The notes beneath the pieces were generated by a model. That model searched no databases and was not told the DNA's origin. It worked only from the letters and a program-made list of their open reading frames with translations. A stretch of 20,648 nucleotides of DNA. Source: a virus. Lineage: Duplodnaviria; Heunggongvirae; Uroviricota; Caudoviricetes. Made by a program: the position numbers and the translations under genes. The stretch lies in the IMG/VR virus record IMGVR_UViG_2778261382_000002; one strand, given 5' to 3'. This document shows positions 904 to 19,601 of the stretch, in pieces (within the stretch, counting starts at the first letter, position 1; each line of letters starts with the position of its first letter).

Positions 904-915
904 CTTTCTTCCCGA

Positions 916-1069: not shown

Positions 1070-1161
1070 GTATCTTCTTTTTCATTTCCGAAGATGCGTC
1101 CGAAGATGATTTTTCTCTGGACGCATCATCATTCATTTTCTCTGGCCACCAACTACGGGCA

Positions 1162-3975: not shown

Positions 3976-4013
3976 CCACGCATGACCAGCGTGAAATAAC
4001 CGAGGAAAGACCA

Positions 4014-4424: not shown

Positions 4425-4425
4425 T

Positions 4426-5304: not shown

Positions 5305-5378
5305 TTGCGGAGTGACGTAAAACGAATCGTTGTGGGTGTAATATCGTCAATATCATTGGTTTCCCGGAGGGAAAGGAC

Positions 5379-5528: not shown

Positions 5529-5546
5529 CGGCTGGGGAGGTAACTG

Positions 5547-6854
5547 ATGCCGTGGAACAATTTTCCGCACCTCGCCGCCAGGGCGTTCAATCAACCGCTT
5601 TTGCTGGAGCCCACCTACGCGCGGGTATTTTTTTCGGCGCTGAGCGACCGGTTCGGTACCGGGCGACTGATTGATACAGCGTCTGGAGAGGTAATGAACA
5701 GCGACGAAATGAACGCGCTCGCGATGGGGTGGGACAGCAGCGAGCGAACACGCCAGAAATCGTATCGCGTGGAGCGTGGTATAGCCGTTCTGCCGGTTAC
5801 CGGGACGCTGGTTCATAAATTGGGTTATATCAACCCAGTTAGCGGGATGAGCGGTTACGACGGAATCGCAAAACGCCTGCAGCAGGCGATTTCTGATCCC
5901 GATGTAAGAGGGGTCCTGCTTGATATTGACTCCCCTGGCGGTGAAGTCGCCGGCGCGTTTGATACTGCTGATTTAATCGCCCGGGCGCGAGAGCAAAAAC
6001 CTGTGTGGGCGCTGGCCAGCGATACGGCCTGCAGCGCTGCCTATTTGCTGGCGTCAGCGTGTTCGCGCCGGCTGATAACGCAGACAGGCACAGTTGGTTC
6101 AATCGGTGTCCTGATGGCTCACCGCTGCGTCGAAAAAGCGCTGGAGATTGCTGGCGTCGACGTGACGCTGATTTACGCCGGCGCGCACAAAGTTGACGGG
6201 AACCCGTATTCCCAGCTGCCAGGCGACGTTCGCGACGAATTCCAGCTGAGTATTAACAGCACGCGCGAGCAGTTCGCGCAAAAAGTCTCGGATTATACCG
6301 GGCTGAAAAAATCCAGGGTGCTGGCCACGGAAGCTGCAGTATTTATCGGCGCGGACGCGATTAAATCTGGTCTCGCTGATCAACTCGTTAATTACGCGGA
6401 CGCTATCGCAGTGATGGCCGACGCACTGAAACCAAAAATGGAGCGCTTTATGTCTGGTACAGAAACCACGGCGGAGACCACGACCACAGAACAAACCGCG
6501 ACCACGACTACTGTCGCGCAGGTTGAGTTTAACACGGAGCAGATTCGCGCGGACGCCGCATCAAGCGAACTGGCGCGTGTGATGGCCATCATCAATTGTC
6601 CCGAAGCTGTTGGGCGCGAGGCGCAGGCAAAAGCGCTCGCTGGCGTCCCCGGGATGACGGTCGGGCAGGCGCAGGTAGTCCTCGCTGCAGCACCTAAAAC
6701 GGCGCAGGCGCGGACAGAAACGGCGCTCGATACACTAATGAGCACTGAATCACCAGCGACTATTCAGGATGCTGGCAGTACTACGGCAACAGGAACAACC
6801 GCAAACGTCTCGATGCTGGTTGCTGCAGGGCGTTCAATTTTAGGGGATGAATAA
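5547..6854 (+). CDS. Head maturation protease / minor capsid protein C (S49 ClpP-SppA-like), lambda gpC-like
   Basis: 435 aa; N-terminus FNQPLLLEPTYARVFF, GIAVLPVTGTL, DSPGG, KPVWALASDTACSAAYLLASAC and IYAGAHKVDGNPY parallel lambda gpC as I recall it. Strong SD GGGGAGG upstream. Confidence 0.9.
   Translation: MPWNNFPHLAARAFNQPLLLEPTYARVFFSALSDRFGTGRLIDTASGEVMNSDEMNALAMGWDSSERTRQKSYRVERGIAVLPVTGTLVHKLGYINPVSGMSGYDGIAKRLQQAISDPDVRGVLLDIDSPGGEVAGAFDTADLIARAREQKPVWALASDTACSAAYLLASACSRRLITQTGTVGSIGVLMAHRCVEKALEIAGVDVTLIYAGAHKVDGNPYSQLPGDVRDEFQLSINSTREQFAQKVSDYTGLKKSRVLATEAAVFIGADAIKSGLADQLVNYADAIAVMADALKPKMERFMSGTETTAETTTTEQTATTTTVAQVEFNTEQIRADAASSELARVMAIINCPEAVGREAQAKALAGVPGMTVGQAQVVLAAAPKTAQARTETALDTLMSTESPATIQDAGSTTATGTTANVSMLVAAGRSILGDE
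6450..6854 (+). CDS. Putative nested scaffolding protein (Nu3-like), in-frame internal start within C
   Basis: In-frame ATG at 6450 with GGAG 6 nt upstream (another in-frame ATG at 6438); the product would be the C-terminal roughly 135 aa of C, analogous to lambda Nu3 nested in C. Inference from organisation. Confidence 0.35.
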   Translation: MSGTETTAETTTTEQTATTTTVAQVEFNTEQIRADAASSELARVMAIINCPEAVGREAQAKALAGVPGMTVGQAQVVLAAAPKTAQARTETALDTLMSTESPATIQDAGSTTATGTTANVSMLVAAGRSILGDE

Positions 6855-7183
6855 TGACTACAGAAACGTATAGCCCGGACGATTTTATTCTTGGGCCTGA
6901 CCTTGTTGTCACGACCGTCGGTCATTTTCAGGGCGGGATCAACGTACCCCGGCTGACACCGATTATGCTCGACGCTACTGTCGGGACGTTTAAGGTTTGG
7001 GACGGCTCAGTCGGTAAAGCTATTGGCCTCACTGCCACCGCAGTTAATACTGGCTCCAGTTCTGCAGACTGCTCGTACTATAAATCAGGCTCGTTCCGTT
7101 ACACGGCGATTAACTGGGGTACGGTTACCGACGTAGCTAAACGCAAATCAGCATTTGTGGGTACGCCGATCAGCGTCGGCTGA
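6854..7183 (+). CDS. Head decoration protein, lambda gpD-like
   Basis: 109 aa; TPIMLDATVGTFKVWDG, YYKSGSFRY and AFVGTPISVG parallel lambda gpD (TPLMLDTSSRKLVAWDG, FYKSGTFRY, AFAGTAISIV). TAATG overlap with the C stop. Confidence 0.85.
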   Translation: MTTETYSPDDFILGPDLVVTTVGHFQGGINVPRLTPIMLDATVGTFKVWDGSVGKAIGLTATAVNTGSSSADCSYYKSGSFRYTAINWGTVTDVAKRKSAFVGTPISVG

Positions 7184-7202
7184 TAGCAAAAAACTCAAAA
7201 CA

Positions 7203-7225
7203 AGCCGCCTCCGGGCGGTTTTTTT
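7203..7225 (+). terminator. Putative intrinsic terminator or attenuator after the decoration gene
   Basis: GC stem CCGCC/GGCGG with 4-nt loop, followed by a T7 run, 20 nt after the D stop. Confidence 0.5.
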
Positions 7226-7241
7226 ATAACAGGATATATAA

Positions 7242-8276
7242 ATGAGCGATTCGTTTACTACGTCAGAACTGATTACCGCGACACAGCAGGTATTTAAGTT
7301 CAATCCGTTGTTTTTAAATCTGTTTTTCCGTGAGACCTACACGTTTACGAGCGAAGAGGTTTTTCTGGATAAAATCCCGGGAAAAGTGAACATGGCCGTG
7401 TACTGCGCGCCGATGATCACCGGCAAAGTTGACCGCACTCGCGGCTATTCAACGAACCATTTCAAACCGGGTTACACGAAACCCAAGCACACGATCAATC
7501 CGAATATGAGCATCAAGCGCGCAGCCGGTGAGCAGATTGGCCAGCCGGAAACGCCGGTCGAACGTCGTGCAAAAATCATCATGCAGAACCTGCTTGATGA
7601 GGAACTGAGCATCAGCCAGCTCGAAGAGTTCCAGGCGGTACAGGCTGTTCTGTACGGTAAATACACTGTTTCCGGCAGCAATATCGAGACATATGAGATC
7701 GACATGAGCCGCAGCGCGACGAATAACGTCACTCAGTCCGGTTCGACAGCCTGGTCGACTCAGGACGCGGAAACGTATGACCCGAGCGACGATATTGAAT
7801 CCTACGCGGACCTCGCCTCCGGTGCGGTTAACGTGATCATCATGGATGGTAAAGCCTGGAAGCAGTTGAAGCGTTTTAAAAAATTCTGGACGGCACTGGA
7901 TACGCGCCGTGGCTCAAACAGCCAGCTCGAGGTCGCGCTGAAAAACCTGGGCGACGTTGTCAGCTTTAAAGGCTACTACGGCGACACTGCGCTGTTTGTC
8001 TACAAAGGGCAATACCTCGACCCGGTAACAGATACTGAAACGCGTTATATGCCGGATAACACGATGATCCTTGGCAACACAAAAAACCGCGGGCTCCGCA
8101 CTTATGGCGCAATTCAGGACGAAGACGCGCTGAAAGAGGGTATTTCCGAAGCGACGCGCTATCCAAAAGTCTGGACCACTACCGGTGATCCGGCAGTGAC
8201 GCAAACAATGACGCAATCCGCGCCAGCAATGGTCCTCACGGACGCCGACGCGTTCGTTGTCGTAAAAATCGCGTAA
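7242..8276 (+). CDS. Major capsid protein, lambda gpE-like
   Basis: 344 aa; FKFNPLFLNLFFRETYTFTSEEVFLDKIPG, PGYTKPKH, IIMQNLLDEELSISQLEEFQAVQAVLYGKYT, LDTRRGSNSQLE, PDNTMILGNT, LRTYGAIQDEDA and RYPKVWTTTGDPA closely parallel lambda gpE. Confidence 0.93.
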   Translation: MSDSFTTSELITATQQVFKFNPLFLNLFFRETYTFTSEEVFLDKIPGKVNMAVYCAPMITGKVDRTRGYSTNHFKPGYTKPKHTINPNMSIKRAAGEQIGQPETPVERRAKIIMQNLLDEELSISQLEEFQAVQAVLYGKYTVSGSNIETYEIDMSRSATNNVTQSGSTAWSTQDAETYDPSDDIESYADLASGAVNVIIMDGKAWKQLKRFKKFWTALDTRRGSNSQLEVALKNLGDVVSFKGYYGDTALFVYKGQYLDPVTDTETRYMPDNTMILGNTKNRGLRTYGAIQDEDALKEGISEATRYPKVWTTTGDPAVTQTMTQSAPAMVLTDADAFVVVKIA

Positions 8277-8296
8277 GAGTCGAAAGGCTCTTTTTT
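8277..8296 (+). terminator. Putative intrinsic terminator after the major capsid gene
   Basis: Stem GAGTC/GGCTC with GAAA tetraloop, followed by T6, immediately after the E stop. Confidence 0.45.
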
Positions 8297-8310
8297 GTTA
8301 AGGAATCAAC

Positions 8311-8730
8311 ATGAGCACAAAAACAGAATTGCTGGCGCGTATTGACGATATGAGCGCTCAGCTCGGTCGCGAATTACCGCGCAGCGGGACTATTGCGGAA
8401 CTGGAATCAATCGTTGCCGGCGCTGAGTCAGAGCTCGATATTCTGAACGAGCAATCCGGTGACGCGGGAGGCATCGAGATTACAGTGAATACTGCGTCCG
8501 GGACCGATAATGAACTCGCTCAATCAATCGCGAGCGCTATCGTTTCACAGTCACAAGAGCAGGAGCTCGCACCGGCTACGCGCCGCGTCAAGTTGCGTAA
8601 CACGCTGGACGTTTATCACTACGTGAACGGGCGTCGCGTTCGCGAGATTGTTGCCGCAGGCCGTGAAATTGTTGTTGATTCACCGGAGGTCGCAGACCTT
8701 ATCGCAGCTGATCACGTTTACGCTCTATGA
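8311..8730 (+). CDS. DNA-packaging accessory protein, lambda gpFI-like
   Basis: 139 aa; N-terminus MSTKTELLARIDDMSAQLGRELPRSGTIAELESIVAGAESELD parallels lambda gpFI (MTKDELIARLRSLGEQLNRDVSLTGTKEELALRVAELKEELDD). Position after E as in lambda. Confidence 0.7.
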   Translation: MSTKTELLARIDDMSAQLGRELPRSGTIAELESIVAGAESELDILNEQSGDAGGIEITVNTASGTDNELAQSIASAIVSQSQEQELAPATRRVKLRNTLDVYHYVNGRRVREIVAAGREIVVDSPEVADLIAADHVYAL

Positions 8731-9107
8731 GCTACTACGATGACCTCCGGGCCGGCGACGAGGAGATGATCCGTGAGTGGGGACGGCCCGTTAAATTACG
8801 CGGTAAAACCGACCCCATTATCGCTATTTTCAACGAGCCTTACGCGCGCGTTGACGTTCCTCACGCTGGTTTTATTACCGGTACAGTAACGAGCCTGACG
8901 GCGTTCTCGGACGACGTCGCTGGCGTTGTTGCGCGTGACGTCGTCCAGGTTCCAAAGCAGCGCAGCATCGAACCTGACGGCTCTGTTACCTGGTCTGGCT
9001 GGACCGATTACGTGGTTAAAGAGCCTCAACCTGATGGCACAGGGCTCACGAATATTTTTTTAGAGCCTCACACGTCCAGCGAAAACAGCGAGTATTCAAA
9101 ATACTAA
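8727..9107 (+). CDS. Head-tail joining / head completion protein, lambda gpFII-like
   Basis: 126 aa; ATGA-coupled to FI; overall pattern resembles lambda gpFII; position conserved. Confidence 0.55.
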   Translation: MSYYDDLRAGDEEMIREWGRPVKLRGKTDPIIAIFNEPYARVDVPHAGFITGTVTSLTAFSDDVAGVVARDVVQVPKQRSIEPDGSVTWSGWTDYVVKEPQPDGTGLTNIFLEPHTSSENSEYSKY

Positions 9108-9138
9108 GTGGGACCTCGGTCCCACTTAAGGGGGAACC

Positions 9139-9819
9139 GTGGCCGATTTACGTAGTAACGCGCAGATGTTCGATATCGATGTTTCGGCGCTGGAGCAGCT
9201 CAGAGTCGAAATCAGCGCGACGCAACATCAAATGTTAATGGTATACAACAGGGCGCTGAACCGAACTGCAAAACATATGCACCGAATTTCAGCAGGAATG
9301 ATTTTGACTGCACTGGCAGCTAAAAATCATAAGGCCGTAGATAAACGAATCAAGCCGTTCATTAAGCGCCGTAATTTTACAAAAGAAGGGGCAGGAGACC
9401 TGAGCAGCGCCAAGCTCTGGTACGGTCTGAATGATTTCCGGGTATCTGAGCTAAAGGGGCGATTACAAAATCCACGGAGGCAAAAACAGCCTCGCGATCT
9501 TGAGACCGGCCTGTTTTTGAAAACCAAAAAAGGCGCTAGAGGGGCAACTTTTACACCCAAAAGTGCAGGGCTGGCGATGATGAGTTGGCCCGATTCATTC
9601 GTAGCGAAACGCTACGGTGCGAAAAGTGTCTGGATTCGACTGGATCGCGGAGGAATCGAAGAGGCTCGCGTACCTGTGCACGACGCGCTGGAGGATGCTA
9701 TCGATGATTATATTTTTGAAAACATTGGCCCTGTTTTTATGGGCTTTTTTGAGAAAGATTTGCGCGGTCGCGTGAAAGGTAATGTCCACGTAGACCCAAA
9801 AACAGGTAAACGATTATGA
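9139..9819 (+). CDS. Putative head-tail connector or tail completion protein (position of lambda Z / P2 R-S)
   Basis: 226 aa, GTG start preceded by strong SD AAGGGGG; basic protein between head-completion and baseplate genes. Function inferred from position only. Confidence 0.4.
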   Translation: MADLRSNAQMFDIDVSALEQLRVEISATQHQMLMVYNRALNRTAKHMHRISAGMILTALAAKNHKAVDKRIKPFIKRRNFTKEGAGDLSSAKLWYGLNDFRVSELKGRLQNPRRQKQPRDLETGLFLKTKKGARGATFTPKSAGLAMMSWPDSFVAKRYGAKSVWIRLDRGGIEEARVPVHDALEDAIDDYIFENIGPVFMGFFEKDLRGRVKGNVHVDPKTGKRL

Positions 9820-10352
9820 GCGGACTGGATGCATTTGACGAATATCTTGATCGCGTTAAAGGCGCGGTTTTACAAATACCGTTCATCAAAACATTCGGAA
9901 TTTATCCGGAAATTCCGGCTGGATTTGAAACGCCAGCTCTGTTCCTGGAAATCAGCAACTGGTCACAGAGTGACGAATCGGTTCCAGGCTCAATTCAGTC
10001 AGTCGAGCTGTCGTGTAATTTGTATTTGCTGCGTGAATTTGCAGCTGATCAGTACGGACTGAAATCGCAGAATGCAGCGCTCTATATGACGAGCTGGATC
10101 AATGGGCGAATGTTCGGTCCCGGAACTAAACCGGCAAAATTCAGCGACGCGGAACCGTGCGACTGGATTAAAAACGGGCAGTCAGTCGGTTCGCATTCAG
10201 TTCAGTGCGTGTCGTTCACGCAGGTTGTAGGCGTTGGTCCAGATATTTTCGATTATCCCTCACAGGGGACCCTGAAAAATATATACGTCGGAATAGCACC
10301 AGATATCGGCGCAGAACATGAGGGCGACTATTATGGCCCAATCGGACGATGA
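9816..10352 (+). CDS. Putative tail completion / tail terminator protein (position of P2 gpR-S / lambda gpU)
   Basis: 178 aa, ATGA-coupled to the upstream gene, immediately precedes the baseplate spike gene. Function inferred from position only. Confidence 0.4.
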   Translation: MSGLDAFDEYLDRVKGAVLQIPFIKTFGIYPEIPAGFETPALFLEISNWSQSDESVPGSIQSVELSCNLYLLREFAADQYGLKSQNAALYMTSWINGRMFGPGTKPAKFSDAEPCDWIKNGQSVGSHSVQCVSFTQVVGVGPDIFDYPSQGTLKNIYVGIAPDIGAEHEGDYYGPIGR

Positions 10353-11235
10353 ATATGCTGCAGCGGAGAACGCGCGCAGGCTGCGTGACGCAGTTAAACG
10401 CGGCACGATAGCTGCAGTTAAAATGAATCCTCCACGCTGCCGAGTCTCATTTGGTGGCGAACACCAGTCAGGCTGGCTGCAGTGGTTTACTCACGCCACC
10501 TCAGAACGCGTCGACTGGAGCGCACCATCAGTGGGCGATCCCGTTACTGTTGTTTCTGAGGGTGGGGATACGCGGAACGGTGTAGTTATGCTCGGGCTGC
10601 ACATTGACGACAAAGCTCCGTCAAGCAATGACCCCCATGATCATGTCACTGCATACTGTGACGGGGCTACGATGACGTATAACACAAAAAATCACACTCT
10701 GACATGGCAGGGCGTACCGGACGGCGTGGTAAAAATACTCGGTGAGTCTGAAATAGAAATATTTGGACGCGCAGATGTTACTATTAATAGCGAAAATGTA
10801 GTTAATATCCATGGTGGGAAATTAATTAACGCAGACGCTGATATTATTAATGTCACAGCGACAGATACAATTAACGCACATGCTGATTTAGTGAACGTTA
10901 TAGCAACGAGTTCTGTTAGTGTTACTGCTGCGAACAGAATATCGCTGACAGCTCAAACAATCAGCGCGTGGGCTCCGGGTGGTATAACACTAGCTGGTCC
11001 AACGCATATTACCGAGACATTAGTAGTAGATAAATTAGCGACATTCCGTAACGATATTTCTGTCACTGGAGATAACGGTGGAACAGGTAATATCACAACT
11101 CGCGGTAGTGTGTTAGCAGGGCAAGAGGTGCAGGACCGACAAGGCACAATGACTGAGGTCCGCACAACGTACAACGGACACACTCATATATGTCCGGACG
11201 GGGAAACACAACAACCGAACCAACCAATGGCGTAA
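10333..11235 (+). CDS. Baseplate central spike protein, P2 gpV-like
   Basis: N-terminal region CRVSFGGEHQSGWLQWFTHATS...WSAPSVGDPV parallels P2 gpV; C-terminal beta-helix-like repeats (VTINSENVVNIHGGKLINADADIINVTATDTINAHADLVNV) and an apex HxH motif (YNGHTHICPDG). ATG 10333 has GAGGG 8 nt upstream; the ATG at 10318 is an alternative start. Confidence 0.85.
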   Translation: MAQSDDEYAAAENARRLRDAVKRGTIAAVKMNPPRCRVSFGGEHQSGWLQWFTHATSERVDWSAPSVGDPVTVVSEGGDTRNGVVMLGLHIDDKAPSSNDPHDHVTAYCDGATMTYNTKNHTLTWQGVPDGVVKILGESEIEIFGRADVTINSENVVNIHGGKLINADADIINVTATDTINAHADLVNVIATSSVSVTAANRISLTAQTISAWAPGGITLAGPTHITETLVVDKLATFRNDISVTGDNGGTGNITTRGSVLAGQEVQDRQGTMTEVRTTYNGHTHICPDGETQQPNQPMA

Positions 11236-11237
11236 AT

Positions 11238-11579
11238 ATGCTTGGAATGGACCGTAACACCGGTAAGCCTTTATCGGGGACTGATCACATTTGTCAGTCT
11301 ATCGTTGATATTTTAACGACCCCGCTGGGAACCCGTGTAATGTTGCCGGAATACGGCAGCAAATTATTTGACCTCGTTGATAATCCCACTGATCCGTCGC
11401 TTGCTATGAGAATAATAATGGAAAGTGCAGGAGCAATAGCACGCTGGGAACCACGCGTCAGAATTGACAGAATAAATGTGTTAGCAGTGGACATCGGGAA
11501 AATAACAATATTAATTATCGCAACAGATATCGAAACACAACAGCGATTAGAGTTTAATAATATGGAACTGATATTTTGA
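11238..11579 (+). CDS. Baseplate wedge protein, P2 gpW / T4 gp25-like
   Basis: MLGMDRNTGKPLSGTDHICQSIVDILTTPLGTRVMLPEYGSKLFDLVDNP parallels P2 gpW (YLGMNRSDG...HISQSIGDILRTPVGSRVMRRDYGS). Start chosen by alignment; the track ORF begins at 11190. Confidence 0.85.
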   Translation: MLGMDRNTGKPLSGTDHICQSIVDILTTPLGTRVMLPEYGSKLFDLVDNPTDPSLAMRIIMESAGAIARWEPRVRIDRINVLAVDIGKITILIIATDIETQQRLEFNNMELIF

Positions 11580-12496
11580 TAACATCAACAGTTCAGAATT
11601 CGATAGTGAAAACTATTGATATGAGTCTGCTGCCGCCGCCAGCATTCGTTAAAACCCCATTATTTTCAGATGTTAAATCCAGTCTACTGTCAGAATTGCA
11701 GATATTATATCCACAATTTAACGCACTCCTGGAGTCAGACCCGGCCGTTAAACTGCTGGAAATAGTTGCATACAGAGAAATCATTATTACAGCTCGGGTA
11801 AATCAGGGGATGCTCGCTGTATTGCTCGCGTTTGCAAAAGGGAGTGACCTCGACCAGATCGGCGCTAATTTTGACTGCCTGCGGCTGTTGATAACGCCAG
11901 CTAATCCTGACGCAATTCCTCCGACTGAGGGGGTTTACGAGAGTGACGACGAGTATCGTCATCGCATACAGCTATCATGGTACGCGCGGAATACTGCCGG
12001 CAGTACGAACGCCTATAACTATTTCGCGCTGTCGAGTGATCCCGACGTTCTGTCAGCTCAGGCGTACGGCCCGCCGGTGACCCAGCCTGGATACGTCGAT
12101 ATGTATGTTTTGTCGCGAACCGGCGACGGCACTCCGCCTCAATCACTACTGAATACAGTGAATGCGGCCCTGTCTCCTGACGATACTCGACCGCTGACTG
12201 ATTTCGTGACTGTAAAACCTGCGTCGAACCTGAATTACCGGGTTGAAGCCGTTATCGTAGCGGGGCTCGGTCCCGATCAGAACGTGTTGCTCAACGGTGC
12301 TCAAAGCGATTTAGCTATATACGTGGCTACACAACATAAAATCGGGGCGACAGCAGCCCTGTCAGGAATTTACGACGCGATACATCGTGACGGAACGGAG
12401 CGTGTGATTCTGATATCGCCAACAGAGGATGTGATTGCTGGCGTCGGACAGGCTCCGTACTGCACAGAAATCAAACTCAGCGTGCAAATGGGGTAG
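11576..12496 (+). CDS. Baseplate assembly protein, P2 gpJ-like
   Basis: 306 aa; KLLEIVAYREIIITARVNQ, DLDQIGANFDCLRLLITPA and ESDDEYRHRIQLS parallel P2 gpJ. The track start at 11576 is TTG; the ATG at 11621 (MSLLPPPAF) is a plausible alternative. Confidence 0.88.
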   Translation: MITSTVQNSIVKTIDMSLLPPPAFVKTPLFSDVKSSLLSELQILYPQFNALLESDPAVKLLEIVAYREIIITARVNQGMLAVLLAFAKGSDLDQIGANFDCLRLLITPANPDAIPPTEGVYESDDEYRHRIQLSWYARNTAGSTNAYNYFALSSDPDVLSAQAYGPPVTQPGYVDMYVLSRTGDGTPPQSLLNTVNAALSPDDTRPLTDFVTVKPASNLNYRVEAVIVAGLGPDQNVLLNGAQSDLAIYVATQHKIGATAALSGIYDAIHRDGTERVILISPTEDVIAGVGQAPYCTEIKLSVQMG

Positions 12497-12498
12497 CC

Positions 12499-13125
12499 AT
12501 GACAAGTCAAAGCGTACTGCCTCCGAACGCAATAACCCCTGAGAGGGCGCTTGAGGTTGTTTTATCTCACGTCGGCGATCTGCCTGGCGATATTCGAATT
12601 ATTAAAAATCCCGATTTGTGCCCTGCAAATCTGTTGCCGTGGCTGGCGTGGGAGTACGCGGTCACCTACTGGAACCCCGACTGGAGCGAGCAGCAAAAAC
12701 GCGAAATTATTAAGGCCGCAGCCTGGCAAAATAAACATCGCGGCACGCGTGGTGCCGTCGAACGAGCATTATTAACGGTGGGATTTGAGAGCAAAATGAG
12801 AGAGTGGTTTGAAGCCACGCCCAGGGACGACCCGTATACATTCGCAATTAAAATATATCTGCTAAAAAGTATAGGGTTAGATTTAGAACTATTGAATACC
12901 TTTATTGCACAAATATTTGATGCAAAAAATTGCCGTTCCTTATTAAAAGAAATAAATTTTGAAACGGGTGTCGATGGTGAATTTTTTATAGCTGGTGCGC
13001 CTTACGCGAAAATAGGCGTAAATATCCCAGCAGACGGCGACGGCGGTGTAAAAATTAACGGCGGGCTATATATATCAGGCTCGCCAATTGTGAGTTTGTT
13101 AGTGGAGATAGGACCTAATGGCTAA
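12499..13125 (+). CDS. Baseplate / tail protein, P2 gpI-like
   Basis: 208 aa immediately after gpJ in conserved order; LLPWLAWEYAVTYWNPDWSEQQKREII is typical of the gpI family. Confidence 0.8.
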   Translation: MTSQSVLPPNAITPERALEVVLSHVGDLPGDIRIIKNPDLCPANLLPWLAWEYAVTYWNPDWSEQQKREIIKAAAWQNKHRGTRGAVERALLTVGFESKMREWFEATPRDDPYTFAIKIYLLKSIGLDLELLNTFIAQIFDAKNCRSLLKEINFETGVDGEFFIAGAPYAKIGVNIPADGDGGVKINGGLYISGSPIVSLLVEIGPNG

Positions 13126-14329
13126 ATTAAAATCAAATCTGAAAGCGAGCGCGAGCCAGGTTTATGCGGTACTGACAGACCGGGGGGCGCAACTTGAAGC
13201 CGCTGCGCTGGCATCGGGTGTACCCGTGGTGCTGAATAAATTCGTTATTGGCGACGCAAACGGAAACGACGACGTAACACCGGACCCGGCACGAACTGCA
13301 TTAATTCACGAGACGTATCGTGGGGATATTAAATCCGCAGAAAATAGCGGTAACCAGGTTATCTTTACACTTTACGTACCGCCAGACACTGGGGGCTATA
13401 CTATCCGTGAGGTGGGGATATTAACAGATAAAGGCGAGCTGTACTCTGTGGCGCGCTCGCCGGACATTTTAAAACCTACGGACAGCAACGGTGCGCTGAT
13501 TTCAATCACGTATAAATACACACTCGCGGTGTCCAGCACATCTACGGTTAATGTTGTAGTATATGACAACTACGTAACTCCCGAGGAAGCTGACAAAAAA
13601 TATTTGCAGATAAGTAAAAACTTATCTGAAATTCCCGCAAATGGTGAAACTGCTCAGCAGGCTGCGCGGAAAAATATTGGTATAGATGGGGACGTTGCAT
13701 ATAGAGATAAGGGTAATGCATTTACTCATCCAAATACTTTTAAAGATGATGTGATTTTTGAAGACGTTTTATCCTCTAAAAAACAAATAAATATAAACAA
13801 ACCGGGCACTGATTTGACGTTGTTTTCACTTGCTGGTTTATCAGATGTGTCGGGCGATTATTTAGATTTTTCGACCCGTGGAGAAAACAATCAGAAGGTT
13901 TTTTATAGATTACGCGGAGTTCACTATGATGGCCTGGTATTACTGTGTGGCGGAATGACGTATAAATACTGGAATGAGGCTAATCTTAAACCGGTTAAAA
14001 CGATTAACGGGGAGTCGCCGGATGAAAATGGCAACATAGATATAAGTCTTTCACCGGACCCATCACCGGAAATAGGTGTTGTTGGCGCGGTTAATACTTA
14101 TGCGCTTGTCGCTATTAATCATGCACCACAAATACTACCGGGCTCCATATGGGCTGGAGGTGATTTATATTACGCTAGTATAAATAATACCGGTTCATAT
14201 AACACGGATATTGCCACAAAACCATTTTATGACACACCCCTTGTTGGCTCATGGCGAGCTATGGCGTATTCACCAGGCGGGGTCGGTGATATTGGGACTG
14301 CCTGTTTTTTAGCTATTAGGATTGCGTAA
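13118..14329 (+). CDS. Tail fiber protein (P2 gpH-like N-terminal domain, divergent A+T-rich C-terminal receptor-binding region)
   Basis: N-terminal roughly 150 aa (VIGDANGNDDVTPDPARTALIHETYRGDI...YVPPDTGGYTIREVGILTDKGELYSVA) parallel the P2 gpH N-terminus. The C-terminal roughly 250 aa are unrelated and visibly more A+T-rich. Confidence 0.85.
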   Translation: MAKLKSNLKASASQVYAVLTDRGAQLEAAALASGVPVVLNKFVIGDANGNDDVTPDPARTALIHETYRGDIKSAENSGNQVIFTLYVPPDTGGYTIREVGILTDKGELYSVARSPDILKPTDSNGALISITYKYTLAVSSTSTVNVVVYDNYVTPEEADKKYLQISKNLSEIPANGETAQQAARKNIGIDGDVAYRDKGNAFTHPNTFKDDVIFEDVLSSKKQININKPGTDLTLFSLAGLSDVSGDYLDFSTRGENNQKVFYRLRGVHYDGLVLLCGGMTYKYWNEANLKPVKTINGESPDENGNIDISLSPDPSPEIGVVGAVNTYALVAINHAPQILPGSIWAGGDLYYASINNTGSYNTDIATKPFYDTPLVGSWRAMAYSPGGVGDIGTACFLAIRIA

Positions 14330-14619
14330 TGATAAGTGTTGATTCATTTAGAAAAATAACAAACCCTGTTTTTAATGACGAGCATGGGTTATCTATAAAT
14401 ATTATTTGCGATATTGACGGGATTGGAAACGACATTCCATTCACCGCAATGAAAAATGATTGCGAGGAACACGGTAGGGTTTTATATGAAAGAGCGCTGA
14501 GCGGGGATTATGGGAGCATTTCTAAATTTGTAAAAAAGAGCAGACGCAAAAACTCCAGACTACATTACGGACTGTTGGCGATCTGTCAATTGAGGCATTC
14601 TCAATTCAGTGTGCAGTAG
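14329..14619 (+). CDS. Putative tail fiber assembly chaperone (possibly frameshifted; continuation 14526-14717 in another frame)
   Basis: TAATG-coupled to the fiber gene, in the expected Tfa position. A second frame open from 14526 to the TGA at 14715-14717 encodes ...SIQCAVDAGTASDAQIENLAELKEAIATRIGENREGIK, which resembles Tfa C-terminal motifs; the frames meet at an A6 tract (14532-14537). Confidence 0.45.
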   Translation: MISVDSFRKITNPVFNDEHGLSINIICDIDGIGNDIPFTAMKNDCEEHGRVLYERALSGDYGSISKFVKKSRRKNSRLHYGLLAICQLRHSQFSVQ

Positions 14620-14713
14620 ATGCCGGAACCGCATCTGACGCGCAAATCGAAAACTTGGCCGAGCTTAAAGAAGCAATAGCGACGCGAATTGGTGAAAATA
14701 GAGAAGGAATAAA

Positions 14714-16216
14714 ATGAGCGTAACTAATTTTTTGCACGGTATTCGCACGCTCGAATACGACGACGGCACAAAAGAGATCAACACAGTAGATATTTCCGTG
14801 ATTGGGATTGTTGGTACTGCGACGAACGTCGCGGAGGCTACGAGAGCATCATTAACGTGGGGCTCATCGCTGGCTGATAATCTCGTTGAGTTTTCAACTG
14901 TATCACCGGGCAGCGACGGGAATAAATGGGTTGTTGAAATTGTAGATATGACAGTTGAGGGCGCAACCTGCACTCCAGGATATAGCACGCTGCCCGACGG
15001 AACAAAAAAATTAACGATGATTACGGAGCCGGGAATGACCCCCGGCAAAATGTATGATCAGAATCAGGAATATAGAGAGGGGAAAACAGACGGAGAGTGG
15101 ATTAATGTAACTTTTGGTGGCGAGCATTCCGGAACCGGTACAGTATTTGGTCTTCCACCAACAAATTTATCAGGTGGAACAGATGACGCATTCCCGATTA
15201 ATTCTCCTGTATTAATTGCAGGTAGTCAGAAGAAAGCCGCCCTGCTCGGGAAATACGGGACTCTGCCCCCCGCTATTTCTGATATTTTAAATCAGACTGA
15301 TGCATTAATCGTTGTTGTTCGCGTTGTAGAGAGTAGCGACGACGCTGATATGAGCGAAAATGTTATCGCCGGAATTAATTCGCTTTTGACGTCAGCGCAA
15401 ATTAACGAAGTTACCCCGCGAATTATTATAGCGCCGGATTACAGCGCACGAGACGAAATAGCGGCTCAGCTTGAAGTGGTTGCAAATAAACTCCGGGGAG
15501 TGTGTTATATCGACTCTCCGCGCGCTGCTACCCCTGCAGACGTTGTGAATCGCAGGCAAAAACTCGGCGGACGCGCTGAGTTGTTGCGACCTCGCGTTTA
15601 TTCTACGAGTGATGTCAGTGGGTTATCTCGTCCGTATTCAGCTATCGCTGCTGGTTTACGAGCCCGAATTGATAATGAAAAAGGATTCTGGTGGAGTAAA
15701 TCGAACCAGAATATCTACGGAGTTACAGGGCTTGAACAAGTCGACGATTTTATTATTGGTGAGACAAACTGCACAGCGAACCTGCTGAATGCCAGCCAGG
15801 TCAGCACGATTATTCGCTATGACGGGTTCAGACACTGGGGTAACTATTTGTGCAGCCTCAGCCCGCAATGGTCTTTCGAGAGCGTTCGTCGAACAGCTGA
15901 CGTAATTGAGGATTCTATAGCCCGGGCAATGATGACCGATTTTATTGTTCGTCCGATAGACCTGCACCTCGGAACAGACGTTGTCGAGTCGATAAACGCA
16001 TATCTGCACAAATTAGAGGAGCAGGGTGCGATTAACGGAGGGCGTGCGTGGTTAGACAGTGAGCTGAATACAAAAGAAAGCCTGGCTGCGGGTAATCTTT
16101 ATATTAATGTTGATTTTGGTCCGAAATCTCCGGCACAAACAATTACGTTAATGTACCGCATTAATAATGACTATACAGTTGAAGCACTGGCCTCCCTTTT
16201 TAAAGAAGCAGCCTGA
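14714..16216 (+). CDS. Contractile tail sheath protein, P2 gpFI-like
   Basis: 500 aa; VIGIVGTA near the N-terminus and the C-terminal GFWWSKSNQNIYGVTG...TIIRYDGFRHWGNYLCS...LYINVDFGP parallel P2 FI. Confidence 0.92.
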   Translation: MSVTNFLHGIRTLEYDDGTKEINTVDISVIGIVGTATNVAEATRASLTWGSSLADNLVEFSTVSPGSDGNKWVVEIVDMTVEGATCTPGYSTLPDGTKKLTMITEPGMTPGKMYDQNQEYREGKTDGEWINVTFGGEHSGTGTVFGLPPTNLSGGTDDAFPINSPVLIAGSQKKAALLGKYGTLPPAISDILNQTDALIVVVRVVESSDDADMSENVIAGINSLLTSAQINEVTPRIIIAPDYSARDEIAAQLEVVANKLRGVCYIDSPRAATPADVVNRRQKLGGRAELLRPRVYSTSDVSGLSRPYSAIAAGLRARIDNEKGFWWSKSNQNIYGVTGLEQVDDFIIGETNCTANLLNASQVSTIIRYDGFRHWGNYLCSLSPQWSFESVRRTADVIEDSIARAMMTDFIVRPIDLHLGTDVVESINAYLHKLEEQGAINGGRAWLDSELNTKESLAAGNLYINVDFGPKSPAQTITLMYRINNDYTVEALASLFKEAA

Positions 16217-16233
16217 TAATTCGGAGATTAAAT

Positions 16234-16746
16234 ATGTCAGACAGCAACGCTTACCGCGCGTTTGCGCTATTCGTGCAGGGCGAACGGGTTTTAAATTGTA
16301 CTGAATATACTCCAGTCGATATGAAAATAATCGAAGACGAGTTTAAAACAGGCGCGATGGATACAGCTATCACTCTGGACGGAGGAATGGAGAAAATGTC
16401 AGCCAGTTTTAAAGTCTCTGGCTCCGATTCTGGTGTGATGGGGTATTTTGGATTAATACCAGGTGCTAAAACAAGGTTCGAAATTCGAAGTGCATATACT
16501 GACAATTACGGTGTCAATTTTGAACGTATTGATACATATGAGGGGCTTATTACGGCGATTACTGATGACGCGCAGGGGACTGATTCAAAATCAGCAGTTG
16601 GGCAATCAGTAACGATTGCGCCGAGCTATTATAAACGAGTTCAAAATGGAAAAGTTATTTACGAGATTCATCCTGCAAAAATGAAACGAGTAATTAATGG
16701 TGTTGACGTTCTTGCGGGCGTTGCTCGTATTCTCCATGTATATTAA
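16234..16746 (+). CDS. Tail tube protein, P2 gpFII-like
   Basis: 170 aa directly after the sheath gene; C-terminus KRVINGVDVLAGVARILHVY resembles the P2 FII C-terminus; GGAG SD 8 nt upstream. Confidence 0.88.
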   Translation: MSDSNAYRAFALFVQGERVLNCTEYTPVDMKIIEDEFKTGAMDTAITLDGGMEKMSASFKVSGSDSGVMGYFGLIPGAKTRFEIRSAYTDNYGVNFERIDTYEGLITAITDDAQGTDSKSAVGQSVTIAPSYYKRVQNGKVIYEIHPAKMKRVINGVDVLAGVARILHVY

Positions 16747-16758
16747 AAGGCAAATAAA

Positions 16759-17040
16759 ATGGAATCATTATTAGACAGTATGACTATTACGCTCTCTCGC
16801 CCGTTTATTATTAAGGGTGAGAGCCGCGATACAATTACTATTCGCGAACCAAAATTACGCGACCGCATTATGTTCAGTAACGATAAAAGTGGTCTTGAAG
16901 AGCGGACAGCGACAATGCTGGCGCGCCTGGCAAATCTGGAGCGTGAGGATTTATATGCACTGCCTGCGTGCGATTACGATCAAATGGAGGCCGCGTTTAA
17001 CGAACTGGTAAAGCCCCCGAAAGACCGACATCAGATATAG
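16759..17040 (+). CDS. Tail assembly chaperone, P2 gpE-like
   Basis: 93 aa between the tube and tape-measure genes, the conserved position and size of gpE. Confidence 0.75.
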   Translation: MESLLDSMTITLSRPFIIKGESRDTITIREPKLRDRIMFSNDKSGLEERTATMLARLANLEREDLYALPACDYDQMEAAFNELVKPPKDRHQI

Positions 17041-17171
17041 TTATTCTGATTCCGTTTATTGCGAAAAAACTTGCCATCCCGCCCGATACGCAAATGGACC
17101 TGCCGTACCGGGTTTTTAATTTCTATGTAAACGAGGTCATGAAAATCGATGGCTATTTCTCAAAACTTTAA
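16759..17171 (+). CDS. Putative E+E' tail assembly chaperone made by programmed -1 translational frameshift
   Basis: The -1 frame opens at 17001 (preceding stop 16998-17000) and runs to TAA 17169-17171, overlapping the tape-measure start and encoding a protein-like extension (...IPFIAKKLAIPPDTQMDLPYRVFNFYVNEVMKIDGYFSKL). This mirrors P2 E/E' and lambda G/GT. No canonical X-XXY-YYZ heptamer found between 17001 and 17037. Confidence 0.45.
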
Positions 17172-18789
17172 AACGCAGGTTGTATTCGGTGGGCGAATAA
17201 ACCCGTCGTTTCGTCGCGGTACAACAGAACTCAATGATGCGATTCGGCAGACGTCGTCTACTGTCGGGAAATTAACGAAAAGTCAGGATAAATTAAAAGA
17301 CAAAATCGCAGCAATGAAACTGGCAGGTAAAGACGTTTCTGATTTATCTGCTCAGTATCAAAAGCTGGACCGTCGGATAAAAGCGACAACGCAGGACCAG
17401 GAGGCGCTGAATACTCAACTTGCTAAAAAACAGCAGCTGGAGAAGTGGACGGGTCGCGCAAAAGGAGCTGCAAAATGGGGCGGACGAGCCGCCGCAGGTG
17501 CGGTGAGGGCTACGGGGCGGGGTATCAAATGGGGGACACTTGGCGCGGCAGGGCTCATTGGCGGTGCTGCAGCTGGTGCGCTGGCAATGAATGCAGAGAC
17601 GTCAGAAAAACTCGGTCTGGCGAAGTCCTACGGCGTTGGCGTCGAAAAATACGCTGCGTGGGAAAATATTGGTAAAGCCGCGGGCCTGAACGGCGAAAAT
17701 ATCGGGGATTTGTCTGAAGAACTTACAAATAAAATCGGCGAAATCGGAAACGAAAAAAGCCTGAATCCCATGTTATTTCAAATTGGCCTGACGAAAAAAC
17801 GAATGGCTGGCTGGGATCGGGAAAAACAGTTTAATGAGGTTATGCGTCGCATCTCTGAAATGAAAGATGAGAAGCAAGCGGCGAGCCTCGCTGACCAGCT
17901 CATGGGGGGCGAGGCTAATAAGATCATGACGTATATGAAGGCGACGGGTAAAAGCTGGGAACAGACAATGTCTGACGCGCAAAAGTCGAATTTGTTAACA
18001 AAAGAGGGTGCGGAAGGGGCGGCGCGTGCGCATGTATCAGTGACAAATCTGTGGGGCTCTATTACGTCGGGACTTGCAGATACACTCGGTAAAATCGGGG
18101 GGGAACTCGCGCCGACGTTTGACTCAGTACGTGAAACATTTACATCCTGGTTTAAGGATAATCAGGGTGGTTTTGTCAGCACAATTACTGAGTGGGTAAA
18201 ACCAGAAAATATGAAAAAAATGTGGGATGGCATCGTCAATTTTGGAGAAGGTTGCGTCAAATTCGGGAAGATTATATGGGCTGTCGTAAAGAAACTGGAG
18301 TGGCTTATTCCGGATGAAAAATCAGATGAAGAACAGAAAACTTATAATGACGAATATAATCGGGCATATCAAGAGTTTATGGATTCGGGAGGTAAATATT
18401 CACCGAACGCTGGATTGACTGCTGATAATATTGCGAAGGCAAAAGCCGAAGAGGCTGTCGAAAATATGCGGCATCCAGAACGGCAAGAACAGGCAAAATC
18501 TCAGGCAGAATCAATGCTCGCGTTTGTTAATCCATTATCCGGGATGGTAAATAAAAATACCGCGCCTGCAGCACTGGATTCGTCGACGTTAAATATTGAT
18601 ACGTTGAAGCAGGCAGTCTCGACACCTGCGCCGGAGCAAAACAATAAAATCGAAATCAATATTGTCGGTGCGACAGATCCGCAGTCAATACAACAATCTG
18701 CAGCGTCGGGGGTGCTCGATGGACTGAGACAGGCTGCGAGTTCGTACAATCGTGGCGCGATGTTTGATAAACCAGCGGCGGCGGGGTGA
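17149..18789 (+). CDS. Tail tape measure protein (P2 gpT-like), short form
   Basis: 546 aa, coiled-coil-like N-terminal region, Gly/Ala-rich hydrophobic segment (GTLGAAGLIGGAAAGALA), located after the E/E' chaperone genes. Confidence 0.85.
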   Translation: MAISQNFKTQVVFGGRINPSFRRGTTELNDAIRQTSSTVGKLTKSQDKLKDKIAAMKLAGKDVSDLSAQYQKLDRRIKATTQDQEALNTQLAKKQQLEKWTGRAKGAAKWGGRAAAGAVRATGRGIKWGTLGAAGLIGGAAAGALAMNAETSEKLGLAKSYGVGVEKYAAWENIGKAAGLNGENIGDLSEELTNKIGEIGNEKSLNPMLFQIGLTKKRMAGWDREKQFNEVMRRISEMKDEKQAASLADQLMGGEANKIMTYMKATGKSWEQTMSDAQKSNLLTKEGAEGAARAHVSVTNLWGSITSGLADTLGKIGGELAPTFDSVRETFTSWFKDNQGGFVSTITEWVKPENMKKMWDGIVNFGEGCVKFGKIIWAVVKKLEWLIPDEKSDEEQKTYNDEYNRAYQEFMDSGGKYSPNAGLTADNIAKAKAEEAVENMRHPERQEQAKSQAESMLAFVNPLSGMVNKNTAPAALDSSTLNIDTLKQAVSTPAPEQNNKIEINIVGATDPQSIQQSAASGVLDGLRQAASSYNRGAMFDKPAAAG

Positions 18790-18791
18790 CA

Positions 18792-19214
18792 ATGAGTGAT
18801 GCAATAAACGGTGCTGAGGATATCATGCTCGGCCTGGGTGATTTCATTTTTGCTATATCAACAGTAGCGTACAACAAACTGCAACGTAGTGACGCCTGGC
18901 GCTGGGCTCAGCAAACACGATTCGGGAAAAACGACGCGTTGCAGATAACCGGACGACCGAACCCCACAATTACTATCGATGGAAAGATAAACGCTTTATT
19001 TCTTGACGGGTGCGGCGTCGGCCTGTTGACAGATTTGCGAGCGCTCGGGAACACGGGAGAACCCCAGCAGCTAGTGCTGGGGACCGGGGAGGTGAAAGGG
19101 TACTGGGTGCTGCGAGAACTAACTGAAACGCAAAACAGCTTTTTGATGGGCGGAACACCTAAATCGCAGGACTTTTCACTCACGCTCGAATATTATGGAG
19201 CTTCGCTAGATTAA
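18792..19214 (+). CDS. Tail protein, P2 gpU-like
   Basis: LGLGDFIF...ITIDGKINALF...GYWVLRELTETQNSFLMGG...FSLTLEYYG matches the gpU family pattern. ATG 18792 has GGGG 5 nt upstream; the track ORF starts at GTG 18786, overlapping the tape-measure stop. Confidence 0.8.
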   Translation: MSDAINGAEDIMLGLGDFIFAISTVAYNKLQRSDAWRWAQQTRFGKNDALQITGRPNPTITIDGKINALFLDGCGVGLLTDLRALGNTGEPQQLVLGTGEVKGYWVLRELTETQNSFLMGGTPKSQDFSLTLEYYGASLD

Positions 19215-19388
19215 TACAAAATCAAGCGCTACCAGAGCACTTAACAAGTATAAAAATAATAAAAAAAACTACGAACATAAATGTAAAACAACCTGATGGT
19301 ATTTTTTTTTGACGCCGAAATACTAATACCTCTCCGACTACTAAAATTAATTCTCATTATGAAATCCTTTTAATTAATGGGGCCCCAA

Positions 19389-19601
19389 ATGATTACATAC
19401 ACTACACGGGACGGTGACCGTCTCGATCAGATCTGCCTTGCGGTCTACGGGAGAGCGTCAAAAACGACAGAGACTGTTTTATATCAGGTTTCGAATTACG
19501 GCGTAACGGATATGTGTGCCGTGTTTCGTGCTGGAGAAAAAATTGTTTTACCAGATATCGAACCAGAGCCGGTTAAAAAAGAAACGCAATTATGGGATTG
19601 A
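19389..19601 (+). CDS. Tail protein X, P2 gpX-like
   Basis: MITYTTRDGDRLDQICLAVYGRASKTTETVL parallels P2 gpX (MKTFALQGDTLDAICVRYYGRTEGVVETVL). Start at 19389 chosen by alignment and a weak SD; the track ORF begins at 19377. Confidence 0.82.
   Translation: MITYTTRDGDRLDQICLAVYGRASKTTETVLYQVSNYGVTDMCAVFRAGEKIVLPDIEPEPVKKETQLWD

What the first reader, a model, noticed from the sequence alone, without database searches (positions are those of the whole stretch)
17001..17171. E/E'-type frameshift extension without a canonical slippery heptamer
The -1 frame opens exactly at 17001 and stays open for 57 codons across the E stop and the T start, encoding a plausible protein extension. This is the conserved arrangement for tail chaperone frameshifting. 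The only window in which the shift can occur (17001-17037: GAA CUG GUA AAG CCC CCG AAA GAC...) has no X-XXY-YYZ motif; the nearest candidates are A-AAG and C-CCG-AAA.
Basis: partly seen in the sequence, partly recalled or inferred. Interest (0 to 1): 0.4.

Follow-up and report, generated by a model that had tools for sequence, protein, structure and literature searches.

The report
Tail-chaperone frameshift at G_GUA_AAG
A defective E. coli prophage very probably makes a longer form of its tail-assembly chaperone by a -1 ribosomal slip on a conserved, non-textbook site (G_GUA_AAG); this is an unannotated but ordinary example of a well-known phage trick.

Summary
The -1 frame opens at 17001 and runs for 56 sense codons to a TAA at 17169-17171, crossing the stop of the E-like chaperone gene (16759-17040, Pfam PF10109) and the start of the tape-measure gene (17149). 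The permitted window, 17001-17037, has no X_XXY_YYZ heptamer.

The ORF length alone is weak evidence (chance about 5%). Comparison with relatives is decisive. Across nine lineages with 53-99% E identity, the stretch between the E stop and the T start has dN/dS 0.17 and no stops in the -1 frame. The other two frames have 31 and 17 stops.

TGGTAAAG (17006-17013) is the longest invariant block in the alignment. It is present in 34 of 34 loci found through the E' peptide. Of 35 invariant-residue, degenerate codons in E, the only ones with an invariant codon are GTA and AAG at this site and CCG two codons downstream.

I found no conserved downstream RNA structure, and the conserved GGAGG lies 16 nt upstream, outside the known 9-14 nt range.

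Best explanation: tRNA-Lys slips back one base on A_AAG, the hexamer-type site known from IS1222. This would give a 137-aa E+E' product. Neither RefSeq nor GenBank annotates it. It is a new member of a known kind, of modest interest.

The parts
16759..17040 (+). E-like tail assembly chaperone gene (93 aa, 0 frame, stop TAG 17038-17040)
   Evidence: ORF list. Pfam PF10109 Phage_TAC_7, E=1.7e-15, residues 9-84. PHROG 166 tail protein. RefSeq names it 'phage tail assembly protein'.
17001..17037 (+). Only stretch where a 0 to -1 shift can join E to E' (the -1 frame is closed by TAA at 16998-17000; the E stop begins at 17038)
   Evidence: No canonical heptamer lies here in any of 12 related loci.
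17007..17013 (+). Proposed slip site G_GUA_AAG. The A_AAG tetramer is 17010-17013. Val-84 (GUA) would sit in the P site and Lys-85 (AAG) in the A site.
   Evidence: TGGTAAAG (17006-17013) is the longest invariant block in a 475-column, 12-locus alignment. It is present in 34 of 34 loci retrieved through the E' peptide. GTA and AAG have an invariant codon, while 0 of 31 comparable upstream codons do.
17013..17171 (+). E' extension in the -1 frame: 52 codons (17013-17168, APERPTSDIV...GYFSKL) plus TAA at 17169-17171. Predicted E+E' is 85 + 52 = 137 aa.
   Evidence: Translation. Between the E stop and the T start the -1 frame has dN/dS 0.17 and no stops in 9 lineages. The protein alignment has invariant PYRVFN.YV.E. 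There are no indels from the slip site to the stop in any lineage.
16986..16990 (+). Shine-Dalgarno-like GGAGG, 16 nt 5' of the heptamer. A stimulatory role is doubtful.
   Evidence: GGAGG in 8 of 9 lineages and AGAGG in the ninth. The known effective spacing for -1 shifts is 9-14 nt (PMC5009743).
17149..18789 (+). Tape measure gene T (546 aa). The E' stop lies 23 nt inside it.
   Evidence: The same 23-nt overlap occurs in 11 of the 12 loci scanned. In L017 the scan picked an earlier in-frame ATG, giving 47 nt, although the conserved ATGGCT is also present there.
16234..16746 (+). Tail tube gene, immediately upstream of E
   Evidence: annotated 'phage major tail tube protein'.
14714..16216 (+). 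Tail sheath gene

Best explanation
The window carries the tail module of a defective P2-like E. coli prophage.

Mechanism (inferred): most ribosomes translating the chaperone gene E stop at TAG 17038 and make the 93-aa E protein. A minority shift back one base at G_GUA_AAG (17007-17013). With Val-tRNA on GUA in the P site and Lys-tRNA on AAG in the A site, the single E. coli tRNA-Lys un-pairs from AAG and re-pairs with the overlapping AAA (17010-17012). This is the well-studied A_AAG single-tRNA slip. The 5' codon GUA supplies the needed A. By established knowledge it is read by a tRNA-Val with a cmo5U wobble base, the kind of P-site tRNA reported to favour NNA_AAG shifts.

Product (inferred): translation continues in the -1 frame from GCC 17013 to TAA 17169. 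This gives a 137-aa E+E' protein (...AFNELVK-APERPTSDIV...GYFSKL).

Function (by analogy): as with lambda G/GT and P2 E/E+E', the shared E part would coat the tape-measure protein and the E' part would recruit tube subunits, with the E:E+E' ratio set by slip efficiency.

Shown here: gene order, the PF10109 domain, purifying selection on the -1 frame, nucleotide-level invariance of the site, and the absence of other conserved slip motifs.

Inferred: that the shift actually happens, its exact site and efficiency, and the protein roles.
For: 1. Context. The order is sheath, tube, PF10109 chaperone, tape measure, gpU-like, gpX, gpD.

2. E' is coding. dN/dS is 0.17 with 0 stops in the -1 frame across 9 lineages. 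The other frames have dN/dS above 1 and 17-31 stops. Length is identical from the slip site to the stop in all lineages, and in 11 of the 12 loci the stop lies 23 nt into T.

3. Site.
- G_GUA_AAG is invariant in 12 of 12 aligned loci and in 34 of 34 loci found via E' alone.
- It is the longest invariant run in the alignment.
- The neighbouring Ala, Phe, Asn and Glu codons all vary synonymously, but GTA and AAG never do. That is 2 of 2 against 0 of 31 upstream.
- Lys is AAG in 9 of 9 lineages here, while the other invariant Lys codons in E are mostly AAA.
- The residue encoded after the shift varies (Ala, Asp, Gly), yet its first base G is fixed.

4. No canonical heptamer lies in the permitted window of any lineage.

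5. Homologous position. Distant PF10109 relatives shift within about 2 codons of the same spot at the end of the domain: P2 U_UUU_UUG (annotated site), Mica A_AAU_UUU and Mano G_GGU_UUU (annotated joins).

6. Literature. A_AAG is by far the most shift-prone tetramer in E. coli (PMC4066793). NNA_AAG hexamers are used naturally: IS1222 G_CGA_AAG and B. subtilis cdd A_CGA_AAG. Their efficiency rises with the wobble propensity of the 5'-codon tRNA (PMC5009743).
Against: There is no experimental product. Tetramer motifs without a stimulator were barely above background in reporters (about 0.15% against 0.11%; PMC4066793), and I found no stimulator here. The downstream consensus fold is weak (-6.7 kcal/mol with covariation about 0; window z-score -0.39; longer fold). 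Rfam gave no hits. The conserved GGAGG is 16 nt upstream, outside the 9-14 nt range. A crude column shuffle gives a run of 8 or more invariant columns somewhere in 15% of trials, so the run length alone is not decisive. E' matches no Pfam, NCBIfam or PHROG family. The host element is a defective prophage, so present-day function in this copy is not assured.
Confidence: 0.78

Rival explanations
1. The -1 shift happens elsewhere in the window, at the proline run (C_CCG at 17016-17019, or G_CCC_CCG / C_CCG_AAA), rather than at A_AAG.
For: C_CCG is in frame in the window and in 9 of 12 loci. The window's own C5 run allows tRNA-Pro re-pairing. CCG at 17017 is also an invariant codon.
Against: C_CCG is missing in three lineages that have G_CCG (L033, L015, L029). 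The C-run varies among near-identical E. coli copies (GCACCCG, GCCTCCG). The AAA after CCG occurs only in the window's group. C_CCG was only 1.8-3.6 times background even with a strong pseudoknot, far below A_AAG (PMC4066793). The CCG invariance is explained by double coding.
Confidence: 0.08
2. E' is made as a separate small protein, by internal initiation or by termination-reinitiation near the E stop, without any frameshift.
For: Hafnia phage yong2 has its equivalent ORF annotated as a separate 39-aa protein. Within the 8-codon overlap, selection on the two frames cannot be separated.
Against: No ATG, GTG or TTG is conserved in the -1 frame before the conserved core. The first Met differs between lineages. 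The scan found no sigma-70-type promoter-like site in 16200-17600, and by eye I saw no conserved SD in front of the near-cognate ATT/ATA codons. This model leaves the invariance of GGTAAAG at synonymous positions unexplained. P2, Mica and Mano relatives are annotated as fusions, and the P2 record also marks the shift site.
Confidence: 0.05
3. The fusion arises by RNA polymerase slippage (an extra or missing base in the mRNA) rather than by ribosomal slippage.
For: The window has short homopolymers (A3, C5) within 17001-17037.
Against: By established knowledge, productive transcriptional slippage needs long A or T runs, typically 7 or more. The only conserved run is A3, and C5 is not conserved.
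Confidence: 0.02
4. The -1 ORF is a chance open frame or a relic, and no E' product is made or needed.
For: 56 open codons has about 5% chance probability. The element is a defective prophage. Neither RefSeq nor GenBank annotates a product.
Against: dN/dS is 0.17 with no stops and no indels across nine lineages down to 53% E identity, and both other frames are riddled with stops. The 108-nt E-T gap would otherwise be an unusually conserved non-coding spacer with a period-3 substitution pattern.
Confidence: 0.03

Closest known systems
Phage P2 E / E+E' (-1 frameshift in the FETUD tail operon)
   Same: Same Pfam domain (PF10109) ending at about residue 84-85. Same gene order: sheath, tube, E, T, U ... 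D. Same direction of shift. The shift sits at the end of the chaperone domain. The extension has similar length (52 versus 57 codons) and ends just inside T.
   Different: P2 uses a canonical U_UUU_UUG heptamer, whereas here it is G_GUA_AAG. P2 E' is Pfam PF06528, whereas this E' has no Pfam hit and only an insignificant profile match to P2 E' (E=0.12). Here gpX lies between U and D.
Phage lambda G / GT
   Same: The same logic: a tail chaperone plus a -1 extended form in a fixed ratio. The lambda site G_GGA_AAG differs from this one by a single base (GGA versus GUA) and uses the same tRNA-Lys AAG-to-AAA slip (PMC5009743).
   Different: Lambda G is a different protein family from a non-contractile tail. 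Its P-site tRNA can re-pair fully (GGA to GGG), whereas GUA to GGU leaves a middle-base mismatch.
IS1222 transposase frameshift (G_CGA_AAG) and B. subtilis cdd (A_CGA_AAG): NNA_AAG hexamer sites
   Same: The same kind of slip site. A_AAG is preceded by a codon that cannot itself re-pair well, giving single-tRNA slippage of tRNA-Lys (PMC5009743).
   Different: These are unrelated genes. By my recollection, not checked here, IS1222 relies on a downstream structure. No conserved structure was found here.
Burkholderia phage Mica, Achromobacter phage Mano, Hafnia phage yong2, Citrobacter phage Chris1 chaperones
   Same: These are the nearest annotated phage homologues of E (27-42% identity), with the same tube-E-T arrangement and a -1 extension. 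The yong2 extension aligns weakly with this E' (hhalign E=4e-4).
   Different: They carry U-rich sites (A_AAU_UUU, G_GGU_UUU, GUU_UUU_A) two codons upstream of the position used here.

Membership tests
P2 E/E'-type tail assembly chaperone with programmed -1 frameshift | Chaperone gene lies between the tail tube gene and the tape measure gene | tested here: met
   Tube 16234-16746, E 16759-17040, T 17149-18789.
P2 E/E'-type tail assembly chaperone with programmed -1 frameshift | N-terminal part belongs to Pfam PF10109 (Phage_TAC_7: E, gp41, gp14) | tested here: met
   E=1.7e-15, 57 bits against a cutoff of 25, residues 9-84. P2 E scores 1.3e-12 with the same model.
P2 E/E'-type tail assembly chaperone with programmed -1 frameshift | A -1 frame ORF overlaps the 3' end of the gene, extends to the tape measure start, and is conserved as protein | tested here: met
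   17001-17168 is open. dN/dS is 0.17 with 0 stops in 9 lineages.
P2 E/E'-type tail assembly chaperone with programmed -1 frameshift | Canonical X_XXY_YYZ slippery heptamer in the overlap (P2: U_UUU_UUG) | tested here: not met
   None in any of 12 loci. The only universal motif is the A_AAG tetramer within G_GUA_AAG.
P2 E/E'-type tail assembly chaperone with programmed -1 frameshift | Extension belongs to Pfam PF06528 (Phage_P2_GpE) | tested here: not met
   No hit at E<=1 for E' or the fusion. P2 E+E' hits at 1.2e-21. hhalign to P2 E' gives E=0.12.
P2 E/E'-type tail assembly chaperone with programmed -1 frameshift | Both E and E+E' proteins are made, and both are needed for tail assembly | not testable with these tools
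   Needs reporter assays, mass spectrometry and genetics.
NNA_AAG hexamer / A_AAG tetramer -1 slip sites (IS1222 type) | In-frame A_AAG, with AAG as the 0-frame codon, inside the window where the -1 frame is open | tested here: met
   17010-17013 in 12 of 12 loci, with P-site codon GUA.
NNA_AAG hexamer / A_AAG tetramer -1 slip sites (IS1222 type) | Stimulatory element (downstream hairpin or pseudoknot at about 5-9 nt, or SD at 9-14 nt upstream) | tested here: not met
   No conserved structure. No Rfam family. GGAGG is at 16 nt.

The most novel reading that the evidence does not exclude
This prophage family reaches a useful E:E+E' ratio on a bare hexamer through a stimulator of a kind not yet recognised. 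Candidates are the conserved GGAGG acting from 16 nt (beyond the accepted 9-14 nt), or the invariant nascent peptide AFNE(L/M)VK acting in the exit tunnel. Alternatively, contractile-tail assembly here tolerates a far lower E+E' level (well under 1%) than lambda or P2.
Probability: 0.15. Interest if true: 0.5.

Novelty: new member of a known kind. Interest (0 to 1): 0.3.

Why it matters
Annotation: the E+E' product is missing from RefSeq and GenBank for an element present in about 8% of complete E. coli genomes (452 of 5426) and in Salmonella relatives. Motif-based frameshift finders that require X_XXY_YYZ will miss it. The conserved G_GUA_AAG gives a simple rule for annotating this subfamily.

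Mechanism: it is a natural, evolutionarily fixed example in E. coli of single-tRNA A_AAG slippage with no obvious stimulator. It sits at the same structural position where relatives use canonical U-rich heptamers. That makes it a convenient system for asking how much frameshifting a tail chaperone really needs and how slip sites are exchanged during evolution.

It does not change what is known about tail assembly.

Tried and rejected
- C_CCG_AAA / CCC_CCG as the slip site: rejected because it is not conserved.
- Downstream hairpin AUCAGA/UCUGAU at 17030-17050: it starts 16 nt after the site. It has one compensatory change in L014 but is broken in L033 and L015 (my reading of the alignment). 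It is absent from the consensus fold.
- CCG-N6-CGG mini-stem 3 nt after the site: only 3 bp, and broken in the window itself.
- Longer-range fold of 196 nt: -15 kcal/mol, covariation -0.26, nothing at a useful distance.
- Rfam scan at E<=10: no hits.
- +1 frame: open for 35 codons in some lineages but cut to 17 in L014 and L021, with dN/dS above 1.
- Pfam, NCBIfam and PHROG searches for E': no family.
- PDB sequence search with the E profile: nothing significant.
- AlphaFold2 of a fused sequence (P0002 plus E homologues): mean pLDDT 60 and E' below 50. This was too poor for a fold search, so none was run.
- Literature searches for GGUAAAG / GUAAAG with frameshifting: nothing relevant. Licznar et al. 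2003 (the NNA_AAG series) is not held, so the measured efficiency of GUA_AAG could not be read.
- The genome-contig scan returned only one locus. The metagenome and second viral scans added no new lineages.

Full report
WHAT IS THERE

The window is the right-hand part of a roughly 20-kb defective prophage inserted next to yecA in E. coli. A 551-bp probe across the finding matches 452 of 5426 complete E. coli genomes, almost all at 99% identity or more, and four GenBank 'phage' records at about 97%. The RefSeq annotation of an identical copy lists sheath, tube, 'phage tail assembly protein', a hypothetical protein (the tape measure), tail protein (gpU-like), tail protein X and a gpD/VgrG-family protein. 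In window coordinates:
- sheath 14714-16216
- tube 16234-16746
- E 16759-17040
- T 17149-18789
- U-like 18786-19214
- X 19377-19601
- D from 19605

E is a clear PF10109 (Phage_TAC_7: 'E, or 41 or 14') protein, E=1.7e-15, residues 9-84. Neither RefSeq nor GenBank annotates a frameshift product.

CHECKING THE OBSERVATION

The -1 frame is closed by TAA at 16998-17000. The permitted shift window is 17001-17037. It contains no X_XXY_YYZ heptamer, only the in-frame tetramers A_AAG (17010) and C_CCG (17016). An open run of 56 codons has about a 5% chance probability from base composition, so the ORF by itself proves little.

IS THE EXTENSION REAL?

I collected relatives through the E protein (IMG/VR and one GTDB genome) and through exact-protein look-ups of Salmonella and E. 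coli homologues. I also searched with the E' peptide alone (metagenomes and IMG/VR). These give nine lineages with 53-99% E identity and 63-98% nucleotide identity.

In every one, the -1 frame is open for 55-56 codons. There is no indel between the slip site and the stop, and the ORF ends at TAA. In 11 of the 12 loci that stop lies 23 nt into T. In L017 the automated scan picked an earlier in-frame ATG, giving 47 nt.

For the stretch lying strictly between the E stop and the T start (17047-17148), Nei-Gojobori counts over all lineage pairs give:
- -1 frame: dN/dS 0.17, no stops
- 0 frame: dN/dS 1.35, 31 stops
- +1 frame: dN/dS 2.05, 17 stops

E upstream and T downstream show the mirror-image pattern, in their own frame. 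The E' alignment has an invariant core, PYRVFN.YV.E. E' is therefore a genuine coding region that has no start codon of its own conserved in front of it.

WHERE IS THE SHIFT?

The ungapped 12-locus alignment shows one outstanding feature. TGGTAAAG (17006-17013) is the longest invariant block in 475 columns. In the 0 frame it reads (C/A)UG GUA AAG, that is G_GUA_AAG.

The four codons just upstream (Ala, Phe, Asn, Glu) have invariant residues but vary synonymously in every case. Of 35 invariant-residue, degenerate codons in E, only three have an invariant codon:
- GTA at 17008
- AAG at 17011
- CCG at 17017, which lies in the doubly coding overlap

None of the 31 upstream codons does. The Lys here is AAG in 9 of 9 lineages, while other invariant Lys codons in E are mostly AAA. 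The residue that follows in the -1 frame varies (Ala, Asp, Gly), yet its first base, the G of AAG, never changes. All 34 loci retrieved by the E' peptide, a search blind to the slip site, carry GGTAAAG.

By contrast the C-run differs even among near-identical E. coli copies (GCCCCCG, GCACCCG, GCCTCCG). C_CCG is missing in three lineages, and the AAA of 'C_CCG_AAA' exists only in the window's own group. A crude column shuffle produces an invariant run of 8 or more somewhere in 15% of trials. The run length alone is therefore not decisive, and the codon-level test is the stronger argument.

HOW IT MOST LIKELY WORKS

A_AAG is the classic single-tRNA -1 site in E. coli. Sharma et al. 2014 found the tetramer hierarchy A_AAG >> U_UUC > U_UUU and so on, with 5.6% shifting behind a strong pseudoknot (PMC4066793). 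Atkins et al. 2016 describe natural use of NNA_AAG hexamers: IS1222 G_CGA_AAG and B. subtilis cdd A_CGA_AAG. They report that efficiency depends on the two 5' bases and is higher when the 5' codon's tRNA has greater wobble propensity (PMC5009743). By established knowledge, GUA is read in E. coli by tRNA-Val with cmo5U34, a broad wobbler.

The site is also one base away from lambda's G_GGA_AAG.

The predicted product is 137 aa: residues 1-85 of E (...AFNELVK) followed by APERPTSDIV...GYFSKL. By analogy with lambda G/GT and P2 E/E+E', E would coat the tape measure and E' would recruit tube subunits. That part is inference only.

STIMULATORS

I found none that fits known rules.
- The consensus fold of the 94 nt from the site is -6.7 kcal/mol with a covariation term of about 0.
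- The window's own fold has a z-score of -0.39.
- A 196-nt consensus fold shows nothing within a useful distance.
- Rfam gives no hit at E<=10.
- GGAGG (16986-16990) is conserved in 8 of 9 lineages (AGAGG in the ninth), but it lies 16 nt before the heptamer. The reported range for -1 stimulation is 9-14 nt. Its conservation could simply reflect the (L/M)-E-(A/E/D) residues.

Because unstimulated tetramers were barely above background in reporters, the efficiency here may be low. Otherwise something unrecognised helps. This is the one open point.

COMPARISON WITH KNOWN SYSTEMS

P2 E+E' has PF10109 at residues 7-85 and PF06528 at 104-139, and it shifts at U_UUU_UUG at the end of the PF10109 domain. 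Phages Mica and Mano have annotated joined products and carry A_AAU_UUU and G_GGU_UUU. Hafnia yong2 and Citrobacter Chris1 have GUU_UUU_A. Aligned on the shared 'AF' motif, these sites lie two codons upstream of the one used here. The position is thus conserved while the slippery sequence has been exchanged.

This E' has no Pfam, NCBIfam or PHROG match. It shows only a weak profile similarity to the yong2 extension (E=4e-4) and none of significance to P2 E' (E=0.12).

The locus therefore works like P2 E/E'. It meets the positional, domain and conserved-extension criteria. It fails two of the narrower family features: the canonical heptamer and a PF06528 extension.

NOVELTY AND VERDICT

The phenomenon and the type of slip site are both known. 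Non-canonical sites in tail chaperones are acknowledged in the literature (PRFect paper). What is new is modest. There is an unannotated E+E' product in a common E. coli and Salmonella prophage family. Its conserved G_GUA_AAG site has no detectable stimulator, and I could not find it described. I cannot check the supplementary tables of Xu et al. 2004 or the RECODE database.

I rate it a new member of a known kind, interest 0.3. Confidence is about 0.78 that E+E' is made by a -1 ribosomal shift at A_AAG.

Noticed in passing
window 16986-16990: GGAGG is conserved in 8 of 9 lineages (AGAGG in the ninth). The Glu codon is GAG in 8 of 9, and the next residue varies among Ala, Glu and Asp, all of which start with G. 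It lies 16 nt 5' of G_GUA_AAG, outside the 9-14 nt range known to stimulate -1 shifts.
   Followed up: partly
L070-L073 (Logan assemblies), aligned to window 16975-17060: Four contigs encode a genomically fused 137-aa E-E' (P0001, P0002) through 1-nt insertions: GAA to GAAA near 17004, or an extra T in the C-run. In three of the four contigs the T gene is called short or in fragments (204, 324, 118 and 86 aa), so these look like error-prone assemblies rather than natural fusions.
   Followed up: partly
window 17096-17125: A terminator-like hairpin followed by a T-run (GGACCTGCCGTACCGGGTTT TTAATTTCTA) lies inside E', over the most conserved PYRVFNF codons. The count of such sites is not above the shuffled expectation.
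   Followed up: no
window 1-14700 (L002 1302-16000): The element looks like a defective prophage. It has pseudogene fragments of an integrase, Gp157 and RepO. No terminase, portal or lysis gene is annotated upstream of the S49 protease and capsid genes. Yet the tail module is complete. It is present in about 8% of complete E. coli genomes, always chromosomal, and was deposited four times as a 20-27 kb 'complete phage genome'.
   Followed up: no
window 17167-17172: TTTAAA is the second-longest invariant block. It holds the E' stop (TAA 17169-17171) and codons 7-8 of T (TTT AAA). In 11 of the 12 loci the E' stop lies 23 nt into T, which suggests the E' end and the T start are co-constrained.
   Followed up: no
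window 14329-14714: A 96-aa ORF (14329-14619) fills the gap between the tail-fibre gene and the sheath gene. It is unannotated in RefSeq and 'hypothetical' in GenBank ON470604. By position it could be a tail-fibre assembly remnant.
   Followed up: no
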